Of a DNA stretch of 64,000 bases, positions 3,541 to 16,172 are shown piece by piece. A program made the translations under genes and the position numbers. Every line of letters begins with the position of its first letter. The first letter of the stretch is position 1. The stretch is taken from assembly GCA_050952625.1 (NCBI GenBank), contig JBMNLH010000001.1, positions 1,120,001 to 1,184,000 on the forward strand. The letters run 5' to 3'. Origin of the DNA: Bacillota bacterium. Lineage in GTDB: Bacteria > Bacillota > Ch66 > Ch109. The notes beneath the pieces are model-generated. The model did not search any database. It was not told the origin of the DNA and saw nothing but the letters and a program-made list of their open reading frames with translations.

Positions 3541-5144
3541 CATTAGTGTTGCATTAACTTTTTAACAAAATACTAAGTTGTTCATTCATCATAGATGTTT
3601 AACGATTATACATGCGGATTACCATAATATAACTGGTCCTATAAGAAAAAACTCCTTATAATAGAGATGTACAGGTAGTCCTGTCCATAATCTCTAAAAT
3701 AAGGAGATCTGCTTATGGACAAGGATACCAGAAAATCTGCATTTCGTGAATGCCTTAAGCCTATATTTGTATCTAGTTTTCAAAAGCTACTTAAAACCTG
3801 GGACATTGACAAGTACGTCAAAAAGCTGTTCGCTAATAACTTTATCCTTTTAATGCTTTACGCCCAGATTGATTGCCTTGACAGTTTGCGCCATACGAGT
3901 CAGATATTGAAGGATAGTGAAAAACTTCAGGAACTTATTGGAATAACTTCTATAAGTGCATCACAGCTATCCAGAAAACTCAGAGAAATGTCAACCGAAG
4001 TTCTTGAAAAATTGTTTACTGAACTCGTAAAGGAGCTAGAAGCAACAATTGGTCATAAAGCAATGAGTCATCGTCTTAAAAGGATTTTCTTGGTGGATGC
4101 CTCGGTGATTAGCTTTTGTCTCTCCAATCACCTTTGGGCAACCTACCGGAAAACTAAGGCCGGGAGTCAAGCTTCACCTAAAACTAGCCTTTTATCCTGA
4201 AGTCGGGGTTTATCCTTATACGGCAATTATCACAACTGCTAAAGGTAACGATCGGACTCAAATGGATAACTTGGTCGTTGAAGAATCTGGAGATGCGCTT
4301 TACGTTTTTGACCGAGGTTACATTGATTACGAGAAGTTCGACAGCTATTGTGATAATAACAACCAGATCCGGTTTGTCAGCCGTTTAAAATCAAATGCGG
4401 TCAAGGAGTTAATCCTAGAGCAAAAGATCCTGGTTGATAATGAATGGGCACTGGAGCGAATTGTTCGTCTAGGCACACCGGGAGTTAACCAAATGAAACA
4501 TCCTCTACGGTTAATTGAAACCCGGGATACTCAAGGAAATGCCGTCACGATTGTAACCAATGACTTTGAACTAACTGCTCAAGAAATCAGTGATATTTAT
4601 CGGAACCGGTGGGCAATTGAACTATTTTTTAAATGGGTGAAGCAACATCTCAAGGTCAAAAAGTTTTATGGTAATAGCGAGAATGCCGTAAAGAATCAGA
4701 TTTGGCTAGCCCTCATATCCTTTTGTTTGATGACATTACTCCAATCAAAGGTAAAGTTCTCGGGAGAGCTCTTGAGTCTTCAACGTCTTCTACAATCTTG
4801 TGGATATGATTCTTTAGAACTTTTCCTCGACAAGTTGTTTAGGCCCACCAGCTCGTAAATCTAATGGAAGACGAAAGAATACATGGGAACAGGAATTCTG
4901 GCAGCTAAACGAACAAACATTGCTTTATGGGACTAGTATTCTAGATGAAACAACCTTAGATCTCATTTAACAAAATTAGGCAACGAAATGTGGTACAGGG
5001 CTATCTTTAATTGATCACTTGCTTTTAACATTTACGGGAAAAAATCCTGTTCAGAATATTCAATCTTAGTCTATTTAGCCCTATATATAAGCCAGTGTAA
5101 AATGCACTTAGAAGAAATGGGTTAAATTTTATGCATCACTAGTG
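3541..5144 (+). mobile_element. IS4-family insertion sequence (~1.6 kb)
   Basis: Imperfect terminal IRs: CATTAGTGTTGCATTAA at 3541, and CACTAGTGATGCATAAA as the reverse complement ending at 5144. They enclose a DDE transposase. No target duplication is visible. Confidence 0.8.
3715..4970 (+). pseudogene. IS4-family DDE transposase with two +1 frameshifts
   Basis: Motifs LVDAS, VFDRGY and IYRNRWAIELFFKWVKQHLK. An extra G near 4163 (should read AGVKLHL) and an extra C near 4845 (continues PARKSNGRRK...LDLI* at 4970) split the ORF. Confidence 0.8.
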
Positions 5145-8310: not shown

Positions 8311-9141
8311 TTATTCGTCTTCTGCCAGGGTTCGGACAATGTCGGGAATAACTGTTTTGGCAACATCAGGATCGCCTCCGCCGCTGAGGGCCCAAAGCAG
8401 AGGCCGACCATTCGCGTACGTTTTCACCTTTTTCGCCAGCAACGGATAAGTAGGATCCCATAAACAAAAACCGCCATAATCCAGGTAATGAGAATCATGA
8501 CCGAATATCACAATCATTAGGTCGAAGTCATAGTCTGGTTTTAGAGAAACCTCTAGTGTCTCTAGAAATTCCTCATCCCAGCCCATCCTAAGGGCATAGT
8601 CGTAATTGTTCAGTTTCGAATCCAGATGGGAGGTCATCTCCTGGCAAAAATTAATGTGAATAACATCCGGATCATCGTGAAAAAACTCTCTGGTTCCGTC
8701 GCCAAAATGCGGATCAACATCAAGGATGAGAAAACGCTGCATTCCTTCTTGACGGAGCTTATTAATAGCTATTGCCGCATCATTCAAATAGCAGTATCCC
8801 CAAAATTTAGATCGACCGGCATGATGGCCGGCACAACCAGTATAAGAAAAAACAGATTTAAAGGTTTTGGAAGCAACGAGCTGGGCTCCTTGCAGAACGC
8901 TTGCCGCAGATAATAGCGCGTTGTTGTAGAATCCAGTCTGGATAACTTTTTGCAGGTATACAGGGGTATGTACTTGATTAACGGATTCTACAAGCTCTGA
9001 TGAAATCTGAGGAGTAAAAACTTTAATATTTTTTTCTTCAATAACCTTTTTGAGAGAATTGAATGACGGAATTATTCTTTTTTTTAAAACCGGGTCACCA
9101 AAAAGTCCAAATTCTTCGTGATAGGTAACTGCCACGCTCAT
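8311..9141 (-). CDS. Histone deacetylase/AcuC/acetylpolyamine amidohydrolase family protein
   Basis: GHHAG, GYCYLND.AIA, DVDPHFGDGT and GHDSH. Start placed at ATG 9141 after GGGAGGG. Confidence 0.8.
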   Translation of the reverse strand: MSVAVTYHEEFGLFGDPVLKKRIIPSFNSLKKVIEEKNIKVFTPQISSELVESVNQVHTPVYLQKVIQTGFYNNALLSAASVLQGAQLVASKTFKSVFSYTGCAGHHAGRSKFWGYCYLNDAAIAINKLRQEGMQRFLILDVDPHFGDGTREFFHDDPDVIHINFCQEMTSHLDSKLNNYDYALRMGWDEEFLETLEVSLKPDYDFDLMIVIFGHDSHYLDYGGFCLWDPTYPLLAKKVKTYANGRPLLWALSGGGDPDVAKTVIPDIVRTLAEDE

Positions 9142-9387
9142 TATATACCCTCCCGAAACCAAATATTTTTTGATAGGATTCAGGATAATCCATATTAGTG
9201 AACCACATAATAACATTATATTATTTTTATTGCCTGGCGACAAAGGTTATGTTAAGCCAGACGACCAAAATAATTAATGTCAGAATAGTCTGGTTAAATA
9301 CATGTGTATTTCTTTTGCTTGTGGTATAATAAGGTTAGTAAGAAAATGTAACTATTTCAAAGTAGGAGTCCGAAAGGAGGGGGTCGT

Positions 9388-9888
9388 ATGTCAAGTGTCA
9401 ATGATGCCCTGCTACCCATGACGACTCACTTGGAAGAAATCTCTAACGTCCTGCGGCAGACTTTGGATACGCCGATTGCCATGAATCCCGTTAATAAAAA
9501 AGAACAGGTGGACTTTTTATCCCGAACTTATTGGTGGAGAACCGATACAACTAATCCAGTCTTTAGGGGACAACGATCTTTTAACTATGTCCAGTTGCAA
9601 GTAGAGTTTGATATTGGGTTAAAAACTGTTTATATTGACTTTTTGTGTATCCCAGATGCTCAGAAGGGTCAGGGTAAAGGGAAAAGAATCATGGATAAAA
9701 TAATTGAGATCACTAGAATGCTGGGCTATACTTGCATAAAACTTGAAGCTCAAGAAAGTAGTGTGCCTTTTTGGCTTCGTGTAGGATTTAAGGCACTTGA
9801 TCCAACAAGTTCTCGCTTCCCCAAGGCTATGGTTTTTTTATTACAAAAGAAAGAATACGAAAACGATCGATATGCTATGGCTCAATAA
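9388..9888 (+). CDS. GNAT family N-acetyltransferase
   Basis: Acetyl-CoA motif QKGQGKGKRIM and SVPFWLRVGF; strong RBS AAGGAGG. Confidence 0.75.
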   Translation: MSSVNDALLPMTTHLEEISNVLRQTLDTPIAMNPVNKKEQVDFLSRTYWWRTDTTNPVFRGQRSFNYVQLQVEFDIGLKTVYIDFLCIPDAQKGQGKGKRIMDKIIEITRMLGYTCIKLEAQESSVPFWLRVGFKALDPTSSRFPKAMVFLLQKKEYENDRYAMAQ

Positions 9889-9966
9889 AATATTTAAGTA
9901 AATTCTTACCAAAAAATGCTATAGAAGATACTTCATATATAGGAGGAATCGTGGTATAATAGTAAC

Positions 9967-10340
9967 GAAGGCAGGGATAAGATGATAAGACGGGTTCCGA
10001 AAGGAACCAAATAAAGAGAAGGGAGGAGGGGTTACCGGCAAGTTGCAGTGCGGAATATCTTGTCTAAGGATGTCAACGGGAGATTGGTTGAATCAAGTTG
10101 CGAACAATCCTAAACAGGTCCGTTGCAGTTCCAAAATTAAGAGAAACGAGGTATCAAGCAAAAGCAAGTCGGTATCCTCAGGCGATTAGTGTTAGTGGTA
10201 GAACAAAAAGAGTATAACGCAGAATACGAAAGACCGTCCTGTTGATTTTGCTTCCAGAACTCACAAGGAAGCAGGTAGCCCTCCAAGCGGGTAGAATACA
10301 GGGCGGTCTTATATTGTCTGATGCATCTGTCCTTTATTTT
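9967..10340 (+). ncRNA. Unassigned large structured ncRNA candidate (~370 nt)
   Basis: Own promoter (TTCATA-17-TATAAT, TGn extended), no credible ORF, 5'/3' end pairing and several nested stems (see findings). Confidence 0.55.
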
Positions 10341-10351
10341 GGTTCTTATTA

Positions 10352-10882
10352 TCACATTTTATTTTTATCACATTTATTTACCGAGTGTTCTGATAAGATT
10401 AGTTTAACGGCCACTTCGTCACAATTAGGAAATTTAATACAGTTGACGCAGTCGACCCACACTTTTTGCGGAAATATATCTTTGGAGACAACCATAAACC
10501 CGCATTTTATAAAAAATTCCGGTTTATAAGTTAGAGCAAAGATATCCTTTACTTCTAGTTGAATAGCTTCCTTTTTCAAAAATTCTAAAAGCTGGCGCCC
10601 AATACCTTTTTTGGTTACCCCGGGTTCGACCGCGAGGGATCGCACTTCGCCTAAATTATCCCAAATTATATGAAGAGCTCCGGTGCCTACTAGGCGGTCA
10701 CCATCAAAGGCAACCACAAAATCGCGGATTGTTTCATACAAAACACCTAAAGAGCGGGGTAGCAATAATTCTTGTTGTGCATAGGAGTTCACCAAATTAA
10801 AAATCTCCGGAACATCTGATAGGGTGGCTTTACGTAAAATAATTTGATTGGTGGCTGTCATTAAAATGTGCCTTCCTTTCAT
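10352..10882 (-). CDS. Short ArgA-type amino-acid N-acetyltransferase (GNAT)
   Basis: LRKATLSDV..I..LVNSYA...LLLPRS, EVRSLAV, FALTYKPEFF and C-terminal WxDCxxCxKFPNCDE. Confidence 0.8.
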   Translation of the reverse strand: MKGRHILMTATNQIILRKATLSDVPEIFNLVNSYAQQELLLPRSLGVLYETIRDFVVAFDGDRLVGTGALHIIWDNLGEVRSLAVEPGVTKKGIGRQLLEFLKKEAIQLEVKDIFALTYKPEFFIKCGFMVVSKDIFPQKVWVDCVNCIKFPNCDEVAVKLILSEHSVNKCDKNKM

Positions 10883-11097
10883 GTACCAATATCTCGAGTG
10901 TTATCTTTTTCAGTAATAACTGGGTACTGCAATTAGCATTACAAATATTAACATCGTAGCGCAACCCATAATATACTGCTATTATGATAACAGATTTAAT
11001 ATCTCTAAGGGTAGCTTGATTAAGCATAAATTATATATTTTCTAATAATGAGAATAGACTAGCTGTTGCTGGGGAATAAAAACTAGGAGGGATTTAC

Positions 11098-11862: not shown

Positions 11863-11981
11863 AAAAATCCGTTGACAAATTATGATAATATGCTAGAATT
11901 CTATTGTGATTGGAATGGATGCCCTTATTTGAGAAATAAGGAGGAAATTCCAGTTTCATTTTGTGGAGGGGGGAGATAGTT

Positions 11982-12356
11982 ATGAGTGCATTGGGCCGTC
12001 ACGTACTCGCAGAACTTCATGGATGCCGATTTGATGTACTCAACGATATTGACAAAGTTGAGAGAATAATGATCAATGCGGCACTTGAAGCTGGAGCAGA
12101 GGTGCGTGAGTATGTGTTTCATAAGTTTAGTCCACAAGGGGTAAGTGGGGTTGTGGTGATTTCAGAGTCCCATCTAGCTATTCATACCTGGCCAGAATTG
12201 GGATATGCAGCCGTAGATGTCTTTACCTGCGGAAACACGGTTAATCCATGGGATGCCTGCAACTACCTAACGGAACAATTTGAAGCAGGACATGTAACTG
12301 CTAATGAATTATTAAGAGGGCAGTTAGTTCCGCAAAAGGTAGCCGTAAATTTATAG
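11982..12356 (+). CDS. speD: S-adenosylmethionine decarboxylase proenzyme
   Basis: [17 protein letters not shown]|[21 protein letters not shown] (ESH autocleavage site). Promoter TTGACA-17-TAGAAT at 11872-11900. Confidence 0.95.
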
Positions 12357-12663: not shown

Positions 12664-13548
12664 GTGGGTGTTGGGGTGTGGGAATTATTTAGACCAGCGA
12701 TGATCAAAGGCAGACAAAACTGCGATAGCCTATTACGATTTAAAAATGGAAAGATTAGTGATTATTTAGAGGTTGATCTCGACTCTTTACCATTACGTTA
12801 CCTGTCAGCACTAGTACTTATTGGTGCTTATTATTATAGCAGTCGACAGATTGAGGGTAACGGTCTGGCTACTTGGTTGCGGGGAAACCCTATCAACCCA
12901 AATTTGACGGATTCAATATCGAATCATCAAGAAAAATTTTGGATTCAACAGGTAATTGGGATGGGAACTATTCTGCAGTTAATGTATTTGGCGGCCGAGG
13001 TGCATAACCAGATTAAAGACAATGAGGGTAGTTCCGCCCTTAACTCTGCGTTTAAAGAAGAAACTCCTCATTTTCCGGTGTTGTTTGGTGATTTCATTTT
13101 TGGCAAGCTGTTGAAGTTATTGGGTGAGATTGACTGTATTGATCGGGTTTCAGAACTAGCTGATATTATATGTCAGATTAATGAAGGCGCAATTCTAAGA
13201 AAAGAAATATTAGAAACCGGCCGAGGTGATCGTGAGAGTACTGTGGTAATTCTGGATAAGGAATTTGGTCATCTTTTTTTTGAGGCTGGTCAGATTGGTG
13301 TCTTAATGGCCGGTGGTTCTCTCGTAGAAGCTAATCATTTAGGCTGTTTTGGAAAACATCTAGGCATTATTATTGGGGCAATCGAAAGACGTTTTGATGA
13401 TTCTATCGTAGAACTGGGACGTCGAGAAGCTATTCGTAGTCTAGCCCTTTTGCCTGAAGGCTGGCTGCGCGAAGCAGCTCAACAGTTAGTAAGGGAAATG
13501 ACAATCGGTATTAATCACGAGAGATTGGCGGTAGCTAGCGGAGAGTAA
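12664..13548 (+). CDS. Polyprenyl synthase-like protein lacking DDxxD motifs (probable non-catalytic subunit)
   Basis: Fold remnants VLFGDFIF, ICQINEG and GCFGKHLG. The FARM position reads EVHNQIKD. Confidence 0.65.
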   Translation: MGVGVWELFRPAMIKGRQNCDSLLRFKNGKISDYLEVDLDSLPLRYLSALVLIGAYYYSSRQIEGNGLATWLRGNPINPNLTDSISNHQEKFWIQQVIGMGTILQLMYLAAEVHNQIKDNEGSSALNSAFKEETPHFPVLFGDFIFGKLLKLLGEIDCIDRVSELADIICQINEGAILRKEILETGRGDRESTVVILDKEFGHLFFEAGQIGVLMAGGSLVEANHLGCFGKHLGIIIGAIERRFDDSIVELGRREAIRSLALLPEGWLREAAQQLVREMTIGINHERLAVASGE

Positions 13549-13564
13549 TAATTGGAGCATAGGT

Positions 13565-14491
13565 ATGAGCAAACTAACTTCAACCCAATTGAATAATAAT
13601 GCGGCGTTTCCGTCACAATCAGCGATTGAAATAGGCTTACTAACTCGGATAGGTTATTTTTTGCGCATGGTTGACATCGGACATACACTATTTGCCTTGC
13701 CCTTTGCTTATCTCGGTGCTTTTTTAGCTGCCGGCGGAATTCACACTCTAACTGATTTATGGTGGATAACGGTGGCGATGGTTGGAGCAAGAACAGCTGC
13801 CTTATGTTTAAACCGAATGATTGACCGGCATATTGATGCTCGAAATCCGCGAACTGCTGGATGGATACTGCCCCAGAGACTGGTATCGTTAAGTGCTGTA
13901 TGGGGTTCAATTTTCGTTTCGTTTTTCTTAATGCTATGGGCTGCAGCTAAGCTTAACCCGTTATGTGTTAAATTAGCTCCTTTAGCCGTGATGGTGCTGG
14001 TAATCTACTCGTATACTAAACGGTTCACCTGGACCTGTCATTTGATTCTTGGTTTAGCTATTGGGCTAGGGCCATTAGGTGCTTGGATAGCCATTACAGA
14101 AAGCATAGCTTGGACACCAGTTTTAGTTTACCTGGCGGTCGCTTTCTGGATAGCTGGTTTTGATATGATGTATGCCTGCCAGGATGAAGAGTTTGACCGG
14201 CAGGAAGGTTTGTATTCCGTACCGGCGCGCTTCGGAACCCCGGCCACCCTCAGGATTTCAACAATATTACATGGGCTTACCATATGTCTATTAATAGGCG
14301 TAGGAGTTATCCAGGGGCTGGGTTGGCTATACTACATTGGAATAGGCATAGCTGCGACTATTCTCTGTTACGAGCATTGGTTGATAACGCCAAATGACCT
14401 TAGTAAGATGCATACGGCCGCCTTTCAGTTGAATCGATATGTAAGCTTAATCTTGTTTGTTTTTACCTTGATTGACTTAGTTTGGATTTAG
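13565..14491 (+). CDS. UbiA-family prenyltransferase (MqnP-like, menaquinone futalosine route)
   Basis: HTLFALPFAY, ARTAA..LNRMIDRHIDARNPRT, YSYTKRFT and GFD..YACQD.EFD. Confidence 0.85.
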   Translation: MSKLTSTQLNNNAAFPSQSAIEIGLLTRIGYFLRMVDIGHTLFALPFAYLGAFLAAGGIHTLTDLWWITVAMVGARTAALCLNRMIDRHIDARNPRTAGWILPQRLVSLSAVWGSIFVSFFLMLWAAAKLNPLCVKLAPLAVMVLVIYSYTKRFTWTCHLILGLAIGLGPLGAWIAITESIAWTPVLVYLAVAFWIAGFDMMYACQDEEFDRQEGLYSVPARFGTPATLRISTILHGLTICLLIGVGVIQGLGWLYYIGIGIAATILCYEHWLITPNDLSKMHTAAFQLNRYVSLILFVFTLIDLVWI

Positions 14492-14546
14492 AGTGGATTA
14501 ATCAATTTCATTTATTTATAAATACTGTCAGGAGGTCAGCTCCTCA

Positions 14547-15197
14547 TTGGGAGATTATATAATTGCGATAACCGGAGCCAGTGGATCAGCCTACGCTCGT
14601 CGTCTTGTAGAGTTGTTAATCAAAAAGGGGCATGATGTTCTGCTTACTATATCGAATGCCGGACAAATAGTGCTCCAGGAGGAGTTGGGATGGAAGGTTG
14701 CCGGTAATCCCGTTCAGATTGCAGAGCAACTGATGCGTTATCTGGGATTTGCCGAATTGCCAACCTTGCCGCATGTTCACAACGGGAAAAAGATAACGGG
14801 AAAATTAACTTACTACGATCCACAGAATATCGGGGCACCAATCGCCAGCGGTTCGGTACCGACAAAAGCAATGATTATCATTCCTTGCTCAATGGGCACC
14901 ATCTCTGGCATAGCTTGCGGAGCCTCGTCCAATTTGATTGAGCGGGCGGCTGATGTAGTGTTGAAAGAGAGGCGGCCGTTAATTGTGGTCCCTCGTGAAA
15001 CACCACTTAATGCTATTCACCTGCGTAATCTGTTAACTCTGGCAGAATTAGGCGTTCATGTTGTTCCAGCCATGCCGGCCTTTTATCATCGACCAGAGAA
15101 AATCCAGGATTTAATAGATTTTATGGTGGGGCGGATCCTTAATCTGCTGGAAATTGAACACAATCTTTTCCAACGTTGGCCGGGAGGTTCAAATTAA
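14547..15197 (+). CDS. ubiX: Flavin prenyltransferase UbiX
   Basis: AITGASGSAY, PIASGS, PCSMGT, RAADVVLKERR..VPRETP and PAMPAFYHRP. Confidence 0.92.
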   Translation: MGDYIIAITGASGSAYARRLVELLIKKGHDVLLTISNAGQIVLQEELGWKVAGNPVQIAEQLMRYLGFAELPTLPHVHNGKKITGKLTYYDPQNIGAPIASGSVPTKAMIIIPCSMGTISGIACGASSNLIERAADVVLKERRPLIVVPRETPLNAIHLRNLLTLAELGVHVVPAMPAFYHRPEKIQDLIDFMVGRILNLLEIEHNLFQRWPGGSN

Positions 15198-15203
15198 AAA
15201 GTA

Positions 15204-16172
15204 ATGAAGACCATTTATCTGTTTGAAGAAATAGCCGATGATATCCAGAAGGTTGAGGAAGAACTCCAAAACTTAGTTGAAACGGAGATTCAGATCTTAT
15301 CTAATGCATCTGCCCATCTGCTGCGAGCTGGTGGTAAACGGTTGCGTCCAGCCTTTGTTTTGCTAGCGGGTAAGTTTCACAATGATTCTCGGGATAAGCT
15401 GATACCTTTAGCGGTAGCCCTGGAACTGATTCATATGGCCAGTTTGGTACATGATGATGTTATAGATGCCTCGATGACTAGGCGAGGGGTTCCGACGGTT
15501 AAAGCCTGCTGGGGTAATCGGATTTCCATGCATACCGGTGACTATTTATTTGCTCGGGCCCTACAATTGGTCTCCCAGTACGATGATCCTCGAATTATCA
15601 GGATTCTAGCAGATGTAAGTGTTAAAATGGTTGAGGGTGAGATTCAACAGATTATTACTGCGTTTGATGTTGAACAGGGTTTAAAGGATTATTTATACCG
15701 GATTAAACGTAAGACCGCGATTTTAATCTCAACTAGTTGTGGTCTCGGGGCTATTGCCAGCGGAGCCCCGCCGGAAATAGTTCGCGGGTTAACACGTTAT
15801 GGGCACTATGTAGGGATGGCCTTTCAGATTACAGATGATTTGTTGGATTTTACTTCCACTGAAAAAGAGCTGGGTAAGGCAGTCGGCAGTGATCTAAGTC
15901 AGGGCATAATTACCTTGCCCGTAATCTATACCTTAAGATCGGGGTTTCCCGGTATAAGGCTACGTGAATTAATCAAGGACATTGAACAGGGAGGAGACGG
16001 CTTGGCTGAAGCCCTGGAAATTGTCCGTAAAGGCCCCGGTATTTTGGCTTCCTATAACTTGGTTGACCGTTATGTTGAGAAAGCCAAACAAGAACTGCGG
16101 TGGTTACCACCGACGCCAACCCGGGACACTCTGTCTAACATTGCTGATTTTATTAGCAACCGTCAGTTTTAA
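15204..16172 (+). CDS. hepT: Heptaprenyl diphosphate synthase catalytic subunit
   Basis: GGKRLRP, LVHDDVID..TRRG, KT motif and FQITDDLLD. Confidence 0.85.
   Translation: MKTIYLFEEIADDIQKVEEELQNLVETEIQILSNASAHLLRAGGKRLRPAFVLLAGKFHNDSRDKLIPLAVALELIHMASLVHDDVIDASMTRRGVPTVKACWGNRISMHTGDYLFARALQLVSQYDDPRIIRILADVSVKMVEGEIQQIITAFDVEQGLKDYLYRIKRKTAILISTSCGLGAIASGAPPEIVRGLTRYGHYVGMAFQITDDLLDFTSTEKELGKAVGSDLSQGIITLPVIYTLRSGFPGIRLRELIKDIEQGGDGLAEALEIVRKGPGILASYNLVDRYVEKAKQELRWLPPTPTRDTLSNIADFISNRQF

What the first reader, a model, noticed from the sequence alone, without database searches (positions are those of the whole stretch)
9932..10345. Free-standing ~370-nt highly structured RNA gene that matches no family I recognise
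Seen: a good SigA promoter (TTCATA-17-TATAAT, TG-extended, 9932-9960) drives a purine-rich stretch with no credible ORF. The ends pair (AAGGCAG 9968 / CTGTCCTT 10327). It has a GAAA-tetraloop hairpin (GGTTCC/GGAACC, 9993-10008). A large domain is closed by GAGGGGTTACCGGC 10026 / GTCGGTATCCTC 10168 and contains CAACGG/CCGTTG and GATTG/CAATC. A second multibranch domain is closed by a 13-bp stem (AAGACCGTCCTGT 10230 / ACAGGGCGGTCTT 10298) with TGCTTCC/GGAAGCA inside. GTTGC recurs three times. G-U pairs favour the + strand. Known: it lacks the hallmark motifs of RNase P, tmRNA, SRP, 6S and T-box RNAs. Inference: this is a novel large ncRNA in the spirit of OLE/ROOL/raiA, possibly partnered with the upstream co-oriented GNAT.
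Basis: partly seen in the sequence, partly recalled or inferred. Interest (0 to 1): 0.8.

Follow-up and report, generated by a model that had tools for sequence, protein, structure and literature searches.

The report
New abundant structured RNA gene
This is a real, transcribed, roughly 345-base structured RNA gene that matches no described RNA family and is confined to one small group of uncultured bacteria from anaerobic digesters; what it does is still unknown.

Summary
The core of the finding holds. Window ~9966-10315 (+) encodes a non-coding RNA with its own conserved TG-extended promoter. It matches none of 4227 Rfam 15 families. The genome's 6S, RNase P, tmRNA and SRP RNAs lie elsewhere.

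Homologs are syntenic in 6 of the 7 species of this GTDB class, one of them cut by a contig end, and on one metagenome contig. None was found in about 145 other genomes of the phylum.

The architecture is a 5' hairpin, an exposed Shine-Dalgarno-like purine tract, a large domain 1 and a three-way-junction domain 2 with a U-rich tail. Domain 2 folds the same way in all 7 sequences and shows compensatory changes. Covariation is thin among the five close sequences: 44 of 53 pairs never vary.

No ORF is conserved. RNA-library contigs from 14 studies hold the sequence. One 330-nt contig spans 9973-10302 exactly.

The 3' end is nearer 10310-10320 than 10345. The link to the upstream GNAT gene is frequent but not obligate.

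Function is inferred only. My best guess is a stable trans-acting RNA that works through its purine-rich strands.

The parts
9932..9960 (+). Promoter: -35 TTCATA (9932-9937), 17-nt spacer, TG-extended -10 TGgTATAAT (9952-9960)
   Evidence: Conserved as TTCAYW-17-TGnTATAAT in G001, G002, G005, L010 and G003.
9966..9991 (+). 5' leader. Predicted start is near 9966-9968. It begins with the conserved (U)GAAGG.
   Evidence: The RNA-library contig of run X4 begins at 9973.
9993..10008 (+). P1 hairpin, 6 bp, with a variable loop (GAAA here)
   Evidence: 6 of 6 pairs hold in 5 sequences, one with a change on both sides. G003 keeps it with further changes.
10009..10033 (+). A-rich linker (CCAAAUAAAG) followed by a Shine-Dalgarno-like purine tract, AAGGGAGGAGGGG (10019-10031). 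The 3' half of the tract enters P2.
   Evidence: Invariant in 5 sequences; AAGAAAGGAG in G003. It is the best duplex with the genome's own 16S 3' tail at the same position in 6 of 6 homologs, -14.9 to -16.3 kcal/mol.
10026..10179 (+). Domain 1. P2 closure is 10026-10039 with 10168-10179. P4 is 10075-10080 with 10119-10124. P3 is tentative: 10058-10061 with 10139-10144. A conserved purine block GAGAAnnGAGGUAUCAAGCA lies at 10141-10160. The apex (10081-10118) is variable.
   Evidence: In G003 the interior is replaced by 27 nt. The P3 register is ambiguous.
10180..10229 (+). Linker between the domains, with the conserved single-stranded AAAAAGAGUAUA (10205-10216)
10230..10310 (+). Domain 2, a three-way junction. 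P5 is 10230-10242 with 10298-10310. P5a is 10249-10255 with 10267-10273. P5b is 10278-10281 with 10289-10292.
   Evidence: The same architecture appears in 7 of 7 independent single-sequence folds. All positions of P5 pair, with compensatory changes in G002, G005, L010, G003 and G004.
10311..10322 (+). U-rich tail after P5; likely region of the 3' end
   Evidence: 6-8 U in the 12 nt after P5 in G000, G002, G005, L010, G003 and G004, read. Contigs of X1 and X4 end at 10302 and of X2 at 10290. The terminator scan finds no canonical terminator on the + strand.
9388..9888 (+). GNAT1, a 166-aa orphan GNAT acetyltransferase. It is the upstream, co-oriented, frequent neighbour.
   Evidence: Pfam PF13673 and PF00583; no NCBIfam match. 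Contigs of X1 and X2 join it to the RNA. Orthologs were found only in family f1.
10352..10882 (-). GNAT2, a 176-aa N-acetyltransferase (NF005840/PRK07757). It is convergent and is the constant neighbour of the RNA's 3' end.

Best explanation
SHOWN. Window ~9966-10315 (+) is a gene for a non-coding, highly structured RNA of about 345 nt that belongs to no described family. It has its own conserved TG-extended sigma-70-type promoter. It also lies on RNA-library contigs that continue from the upstream GNAT1 gene. It consists of a 5' hairpin, an A-rich linker, a conserved Shine-Dalgarno-like purine tract, a large domain 1 whose interior is dispensable (absent in G003), an A-rich linker, and a three-way-junction domain 2 whose 13-14-bp basal stem is followed by a U-rich tail. 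It is kept at one syntenic place in a single small lineage.

INFERRED. It is a stable trans-acting RNA. The 5' hairpin and the basal stem of domain 2 protect its ends, and that stem with its U-rich tail probably also ends transcription. The parts conserved in sequence, rather than only in pairing, are exposed purine-rich strands. These are AAGGGAGGAGG, GAGAAnnGAGGUAU and AAAAAGAGUAUA. I therefore think they are the working surface. The most specific guess is that the Shine-Dalgarno mimic docks on the 3' tail of 16S rRNA in the 30S subunit, as a STAB-SD element does. That would shield the RNA from 5' exonuclease and could hold back 30S subunits.

ODDS. Real new ncRNA gene: about 0.9. Trans-acting through the purine strands: about 0.45. 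30S docking in particular: about 0.25.
For: - Not a known RNA. No Rfam 15 family reaches gathering score in the window. Nothing relevant appears at E<=10 on 9800-10500 or at E<=1 on four homolog loci. 6S, tmRNA and large SRP RNAs are found elsewhere above cut-off, and an RNase P match lies elsewhere.
- Homologs. 4 of 61 genomes matched by DNA search. 5 of 151 matched model R1. 5 of 7 genomes of the class matched. G004 has domain 2 up to a contig end (11.9 bits; 30.5 bits, E 1.1e-05). One of 2 metagenome stretches scores 245 bits.
- Conservation. The RNA is 78-83% identical between genera, against 70-77% for GNAT1, GNAT2 and FAH. In a strain variant seen in runs X1 and X2, 21 of the 22 listed substitutions lie upstream of 9941 and one lies in the RNA.
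- Structure. z -3.95 and -2.93. 98.9% of 261 cells pair, against 37-51% when partners are slid. Domain 2 folds into the same junction in 7 of 7 sequences, with compensatory changes in P5, P5a and P5b in G003 and G004.
- Not coding. The longest ORFs differ in frame and extent between homologs.
- Expression. 22 RNA runs from 14 studies hold 40-60% of the sampled words. I laid 4 of the 22. Contigs span 9973-10302 (330 nt, 0 differences), 9328-10302, 9358-10290 and 9858-10172.
- Shine-Dalgarno mimic. The 16S 3' tail was read from the genome. The best duplex falls at positions 54-68 in 6 of 6 homologs, -14.9 to -16.3 kcal/mol. No start codon at a usable spacing is conserved.
- STAB-SD precedent: PMC4113751, passages of section 3.2 read.
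Against: - Covariation is thin among the five close sequences. 44 of 53 pairs never vary and only 3 pairs change on both sides; 161 of 500 shuffles reach that count. The real support comes from two divergent sequences, G003 and G004, aligned partly by eye.
- The sequences are few and related: 7 in all, from one class.
- The Shine-Dalgarno duplex is only modestly better than chance for so purine-rich an RNA. 8-14 of 200 shuffles do as well. Its 3' half is also paired inside P2, so it is not fully exposed.
- Contigs cannot show strand, level or true ends, and RNA libraries can contain DNA. No DNA run or silent stretch was laid as a control.
- No canonical terminator was detected on the + strand.
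- No partner, target or phenotype is known. Trans action is not shown.
Confidence: 0.45

Rival explanations
1. Scaffold of a dedicated ribonucleoprotein, as OLE RNA is for its Oap proteins. The RNA binds one or more proteins, possibly the co-transcribed GNAT1, and localises or regulates them.
For: GNAT1 lies directly upstream in G000, G001, G002, G005 and L010 and is consistent with that position in G004. Two RNA-library contigs join GNAT1 and the RNA. GNAT1 orthologs and the RNA were both found only in family f1. The helices are conserved but the loops are not, which is typical of a scaffold.
Against: In G003 the GNAT1 ortholog (45% identity) is on another contig with no RNA beside it, while the RNA stays beside GNAT2. 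GNAT1 is a generic GNAT fold: its best PDB matches are SACOL1063, PaiA and SpeG at TM about 0.43-0.46, and nothing is RNA-related. Sharing a family-level range is weak evidence of partnership.
Confidence: 0.2
2. A cis-acting module rather than a trans-acting RNA. It would be a structured 3' UTR that stabilises and terminates the GNAT1 message, and that insulates it from the convergent GNAT2 transcript.
For: Contigs of X1 and X2 run from just after the GNAT1 promoter region (9328, 9358) to 10302 and 10290. No terminator is predicted between GNAT1 and the RNA. The RNA's 3' end lies 21-42 nt from the GNAT2 stop codon in G000, L010 and G003.
Against: The RNA has its own promoter, conserved in all six loci where the 5' side is known, including G003, which has no GNAT1 upstream. 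A contig covering only the RNA occurs in run X4. 345 nt with conserved single-stranded blocks is far more than a terminator needs.
Confidence: 0.15
3. A ligand- or signal-sensing RNA (an orphan riboswitch) whose terminator decides whether transcription reads antisense into GNAT2.
For: The layout is a promoter, a structured RNA, and a stem with a U-rich tail facing a convergent gene. Domain 1 holds long invariant stretches in five sequences.
Against: No co-oriented ORF lies downstream. The interior of domain 1 is missing in G003, which a ligand pocket would not tolerate. The junction nucleotides of domain 2 are not conserved. No alternative anti-terminator pairing was seen. There is no Rfam riboswitch match.
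Confidence: 0.06
4. It encodes a small protein: either the 48-aa ORF at 10043-10189, or a leaderless ORF starting at the 5' AUGAAGG.
For: The 48-aa ORF is intact in G000 and G001. The three substitutions between them at 10097-10107 are all synonymous in its frame. G001, G002, G005 and L010 begin with AUGAAGG.
Against: The 48-aa frame stops after 7-8 codons in G002 and L010 (read). The region has 1-nt and 4-nt indels between homologs and is absent in G003. The 5' ORF has ACG in G000 and stops at codon 7 in G000 and G001; elsewhere it runs 33-60 aa. The same three substitutions also re-register a hairpin, from GATTG/CAATC to ATTGG/CCAAT.
Confidence: 0.04

Closest known systems
Orphan structured bacterial ncRNAs found by comparative genomics (raiA, OLE, ROOL, HEARO and similar motifs)
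   Same: It is free-standing and multi-domain, much longer than a typical base-pairing sRNA, conserved in structure, of unknown function, and found in anaerobic Firmicutes-like bacteria.
   Different: It has no sequence or structure match to any of them in Rfam 15. It is smaller than OLE, ROOL and GOLLD (sizes recalled, not from a call). Its range is very narrow: 6 of 7 species of one class. It has few conserved junction nucleotides, and half of it is dispensable in one species.
STAB-SD 5' stabiliser of Bacillus thuringiensis cry3A mRNA (PMC4113751, section 3.2, passages read)
   Same: A Shine-Dalgarno-like tract near the 5' end that is complementary to the 16S 3' tail and does not start translation. 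The host is Gram-positive, where 5' exonuclease decay matters.
   Different: STAB-SD sits in the leader of an mRNA. Here it sits in a non-coding RNA, about 55 nt from the 5' end, and is partly paired in P2. Binding to 30S and any effect on stability are untested.
6S RNA and other abundant housekeeping RNAs
   Same: It appears to be an abundant, stable, structured, single-copy chromosomal RNA gene with its own promoter.
   Different: The genome has a canonical 6S elsewhere (97.9 bits). This RNA lacks the long bulged-hairpin shape of 6S and is not widely distributed.

Membership tests
Any Rfam 15 family (incl. OLE, ROOL, GOLLD, raiA, HEARO, T-box, riboswitches) | Covariance-model score at or above the family's gathering score | tested here: not met
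   only two tRNAs elsewhere in the window; the best hits on 9800-10500 are SAM-II at 17 bits (cut-off 44) and SNORD125 at 14.7 bits, all with E>=2; nothing on the RNA in four homolog loci.
6S RNA | Match to RF00013; one canonical copy per genome | tested here: not met
   the genome's 6S is at C1:639058-639238 (97.9 bits), not here.
RNase P RNA | Match to the bacterial RNase P models | tested here: not met
   the only match to RF00011 is at C1:88547-88890 (54.1 bits, below the type-B cut-off of 97). It is probably the type-A RNA, but RF00010 was not run. There is no hit at this locus.
tmRNA / SRP RNA | Match to RF00023 / RF01854 | tested here: not met
   tmRNA at C3:129661-130045 (182 bits). 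SRP RNA at C4:263951-264214 (224 bits).
Cis-regulatory leader (riboswitch, T-box, attenuator) | A co-oriented ORF directly downstream | tested here: not met
   the next gene (10352-10882) is on the opposite strand. The same holds in L010, G003 and G002.
STAB-SD-like stabiliser (works like, not homology) | Shine-Dalgarno-like tract complementary to the 16S 3' tail, without a start codon at working distance | tested here: met
   -14.9 to -16.3 kcal/mol at the same position in 6 of 6 homologs (8-14 of 200 shuffles as good). No conserved start codon.
STAB-SD-like stabiliser (works like, not homology) | 30S binding that blocks 5'-3' exonuclease and raises RNA half-life | not testable with these tools
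   Needs 30S binding or toeprint assays and decay assays.
CsrA-sponge RNA (CsrB/RsmZ-like) | Many GGA motifs, enriched and presented in hairpin loops | tested here: not met
   8 GGA in 400 nt of G000, where base composition predicts about 9 (my arithmetic); 3 in G003. CsrA genes do exist.
Intrinsic terminator at the 3' end | G+C-rich stem directly followed by a U tract | tested here: inconclusive
   The P5 stem of 13-14 bp is followed by 6-8 U in 12 nt in six sequences. The stem encloses a branched junction, and the scan reports no + strand terminator.

The most novel reading that the evidence does not exclude
This RNA founds a new class of ribosome-directed regulatory RNA. It would be an abundant structured RNA that presents a Shine-Dalgarno mimic and other purine strands on a rigid two-domain scaffold, to dock on the anti-Shine-Dalgarno tail of 30S subunits. 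It could thereby tune or park translation capacity in slow-growing syntrophic bacteria, possibly together with the co-transcribed orphan acetyltransferase GNAT1.
Probability: 0.12. Interest if true: 0.8.

Novelty: new member of a known kind. Interest (0 to 1): 0.52.

Why it matters
Structured RNAs longer than about 300 nt that are neither ribosomal, RNase P, tmRNA, SRP nor mobile-element RNAs are rare. Those studied so far have tended to show unexpected biochemistry.

This one comes from an uncultured lineage of anaerobic-digester bacteria. It is present in RNA libraries of 14 studies, and it is conserved at least as well as the protein genes around it. It adds a new RNA family for annotation of such genomes and metatranscriptomes, where it would otherwise pass as intergenic sequence.

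It also offers a compact natural test case. One species (G003) lacks the whole interior of domain 1.

Its narrow range and unknown function limit the immediate impact.

Tried and rejected
- Divergent housekeeping RNA: rejected.
- Phage or mobile origin: 0 and 1 exact-pattern stretches in viral contigs, and neither the one viral stretch nor L011 matches R1. The RNA is single-copy in its genome.
- CsrA sponge: GGA is not enriched.
- GNAT1 as an RNA-acting enzyme: only generic GNAT matches by sequence and by fold.
- RNA beside the GNAT1 paralogs or beside G003's GNAT1 ortholog: 0 matches at E<=1 in 8 loci.
- G006, the other family of the order: the space after GNAT2 holds a terminator-like hairpin and a convergent ORF, with no RNA.
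- Exact 17-mer in genome contigs: 40 stretches. Only 3 match R1. The 'Syntrophomonas sp.' contig L021 was a chance hit.
- Metagenome stretch L011 was a chance hit.
- MAFFT misaligned domain 2 of G000, G003 and G004. The alignments made from models R1 and R2 were polluted by antisense hits of the near-palindromic stems. Neither was used for counts; scripts were used instead.
- Interior of domain 1: two incompatible registers for P3 (AUAUCUUG/CGAGGUAU in G000 against UCUCU/AGAGA in the alignment). This is left unresolved.
- A-rich linker pairing with the U-rich 3' tail: complementary stretches were seen by eye in G000, G003 and L010 but not in G002 or G005. They lie beyond the contig ends. Not claimed.
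- Depth and cover: in the four runs laid, nothing covered 10326-11000, and X4 and X8 had nothing before 9858. X1 and X4 (two studies) both stop at 10302 without a loose end, but no DNA run was laid beside them, so this is at most a weak hint of a 3' end.
- Literature: searches (0 papers; 1 paper, on plants; search too broad; none of the 12 listed papers mentions Syntrophomonas) gave nothing relevant; term searches of the main text of PMC11109978 and PMC8632094 found no 'Syntroph', 'GNAT' or 'Clostridia'. The one 'acetyltransferase' passage in PMC11109978 concerns aceF. Supplements are closed, so their full motif lists, which might hold a related candidate, were not seen.

Full report
WHAT IS THERE. 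Between the GNAT-family gene at 9388-9888 (+) and a convergent GNAT-family gene at 10352-10882 (-) lies about 460 nt with no credible ORF. The region as a whole is not enriched in promoter-like sites (7 found, 5.9 expected). What speaks for this one is that the same TTCAYW-17-TGnTATAAT arrangement stands before every homolog whose 5' side is known. The + strand folds clearly better than shuffled sequence. For 9965-10345 z is -3.95, and for 9966-10318 it is -2.93, with 0 of 100 shuffles as good in each case. The - strand gives -2.09.

NOT A KNOWN RNA. A scan of all 64 kb against the 4227 families of Rfam 15 gave only two tRNAs elsewhere. A permissive scan of 9800-10500 gave four chance-level hits (E 2 to 9.2, 11-17 bits against cut-offs of 34-80). 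A permissive scan of four homolog loci gave nothing on the RNA. The genome's own 6S, tmRNA and large SRP RNAs are elsewhere and above cut-off. An RNase P match is at C1:88547-88890, at 54 bits on the type-B model; the type-A model was not run. Text searches gave nothing relevant. Supplements of the Breaker-laboratory surveys could not be opened.

RELATIVES AND RANGE. A DNA search found the RNA in 4 of 61 related genomes. The covariance model R1 (319 positions, 62 pairs) found it in 5 of 151 genomes and in 5 of the 7 genomes that make up the whole GTDB class. A sixth genome, G004, has domain 2 running into a contig end, and its GNAT1 ortholog sits at another contig end. The seventh, G006, belongs to the other family and has nothing beside its GNAT2. 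One metagenome contig, L010, carries a full copy at 245 bits. Public titles of three of the contigs read 'Syntrophomonadaceae bacterium' MAGs. No copy is on viral contigs, and the RNA is single-copy in its genome.

SYNTENY. The usual order is GNAT1, then the RNA, then the convergent GNAT2, then a fumarylacetoacetate-hydrolase-family gene, then S-adenosylmethionine decarboxylase. G003 differs upstream: it has a glycosyltransferase and a tRNA, then the RNA, then GNAT2 and FAH. Its GNAT1 ortholog is on another contig without an RNA. The constant neighbour is therefore GNAT2, not GNAT1.

STRUCTURE. Five sequences align end to end (A7). On a curated set of 53 pairs, 98.9% of 261 cells pair, against 37-51% when the partners are slid by 1-3 columns. 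However, 44 of the 53 pairs never vary, and only 3 pairs show changes on both sides. On these five sequences alone the covariation is therefore weak, and the tool's shuffle control says the same (161 of 500 shuffles reach 3 such pairs).

The stronger evidence comes from the two divergent members. All seven domain-2 sequences, folded one by one, give the same three-way junction. Every position of the 12-14-bp basal stem pairs in each, with different letters in G003 and G004. By my reading, hairpin P5a reads GUCCUU/AAGGAC in G003 where the other full-length sequences read GCUUCC/GGAAGC. Hairpin P5b runs ACCC/GGGU, GCCC/GGGC and ACCUAA/UUAGGU.

G003 also keeps P1 and the inner part of P2, but replaces the 123-nt interior of domain 1 by 27 nt. 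That interior is therefore dispensable. Inside domain 1, P4 (AACGG/CCGUU) is solid, P3 has two competing registers, and the apex is lineage-specific. Eighteen paired cells are G-U, including two invariant ones in P2. This fits the + strand only.

SELECTION AND CODING. Between genera the RNA is 78-83% identical, while GNAT1, GNAT2 and FAH are 70-77% identical at the DNA level. A strain variant seen in two RNA libraries has 21 listed substitutions and one insertion between 9385 and 9940, and a single substitution in the RNA. ORFs are not conserved. The 48-aa ORF of G000 and G001 stops after 7-8 codons in G002 and L010, and lies in a region with 1-nt and 4-nt indels. The 5' AUG-led frame is absent in G000 (ACG) and stops at codon 7 in G001.

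EXPRESSION. Twenty-two RNA runs from 14 studies of biogas, digester and sludge communities hold 40-60% of the sampled words of a 501-nt query, of which the RNA makes up about 70%. I laid four of the 22.
- X4, a very small run, has a 330-nt contig covering 9973-10302 with no difference.
- X1 and X2 have contigs covering 9328-10302 and 9358-10290, which join GNAT1 to the RNA.
- X8 covers 9858-10172.
These are contigs, so they show presence in RNA libraries and what is joined. They do not show strand, level or true ends, and no DNA control was laid. They fit a start near 9967 plus read-through from GNAT1. They also fit an end near the foot of P5 rather than at 10345.

HOW IT MAY WORK. The helices are conserved mostly as pairings. 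The loops and the domain-2 junctions are not conserved. The blocks conserved as sequence are purine-rich and largely unpaired: (U)GAAGG at the 5' end, CCAAAUAAA, AAGGGAGGAGG, GAGAAnnGAGGUAU and AAAAAGAGUAUA.

The central tract is a strong Shine-Dalgarno look-alike. Against the genome's own 16S 3' tail it gives the best duplex in the whole RNA, at the same position in all six full homologs, at -14.9 to -16.3 kcal/mol. Because the RNA is purine-rich, 8-14 of 200 shuffles do as well. No start codon follows at a conserved, usable distance.

In Gram-positive bacteria such non-initiating tracts (STAB-SD) bind 30S and block RNase J1 (PMC4113751, section 3.2). My best reading is therefore a stable trans-acting RNA whose ends are protected by P1 and P5, and whose purine strands are the working surface, with 30S docking as the most specific guess. 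This step is inference throughout.

The rivals are a protein scaffold (perhaps with GNAT1), a cis-acting 3' UTR and insulator module, an orphan riboswitch, and a small protein. They are weighed in their own sections. A CsrA sponge is unlikely because GGA is not enriched, although the genome has two CsrA genes and Hfq.

VERDICT. It is smaller, narrower in range and less ornate than the comparison with OLE and ROOL suggests. Three of the listed structural details do not survive comparison. The GNAT partnership is not obligate.

Noticed in passing
L004 1-302 (G005, just downstream of its RNA copy): A 105-nt unit repeated 2.9 times in tandem at 98% identity, running to the contig end. Its nature is unknown.
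   Followed up: partly
L003 ~762-830 (G002, downstream of its RNA copy): A long near-perfect hairpin of about 30 bp between the RNA and GNAT2, next to a run of N. It looks like a two-way terminator and gives spurious microRNA-family hits.
   Followed up: partly
L009 1266-1340 (G003): A tRNA gene (59 bits) lies about 130 nt upstream of the RNA's promoter, in place of GNAT1.
   Followed up: no
window 10097-10107: The three substitutions between G000 and G001 here are all synonymous in the 48-aa ORF frame. They also convert the hairpin GATTG/CAATC into ATTGG/CCAAT. One of them (10105 C>T) recurs in the strain variant of runs X1 and X2.
   Followed up: partly
window 8311-9243 (-), 9388-9888, 10352-10882 (-), 11961-12356: A histone-deacetylase-family gene, two GNAT acetyltransferases and S-adenosylmethionine decarboxylase cluster together, which hints at polyamine acetylation and deacetylation. 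GNAT1's nearest folds include SpeG and PaiA at low TM-score. The deacetylase is not kept next to the RNA in L010.
   Followed up: partly
G000:C1:1516016-1516465 and paralog loci L075-L079: Each genome of the family also has a second, 25-37% identical paralog of GNAT1 elsewhere, without an RNA beside it.
   Followed up: partly
window 4262-4858: A 198-aa ORF matches only the C-terminal part of a DDE transposase (PF01609). It is probably a fragment.
   Followed up: no
window 12664-16172: Downstream lie an ORF with no Pfam family, then UbiA prenyltransferase, a flavoprotein (PF02441) and a polyprenyl synthetase. This looks like a quinone-type prenylation cluster.
   Followed up: no
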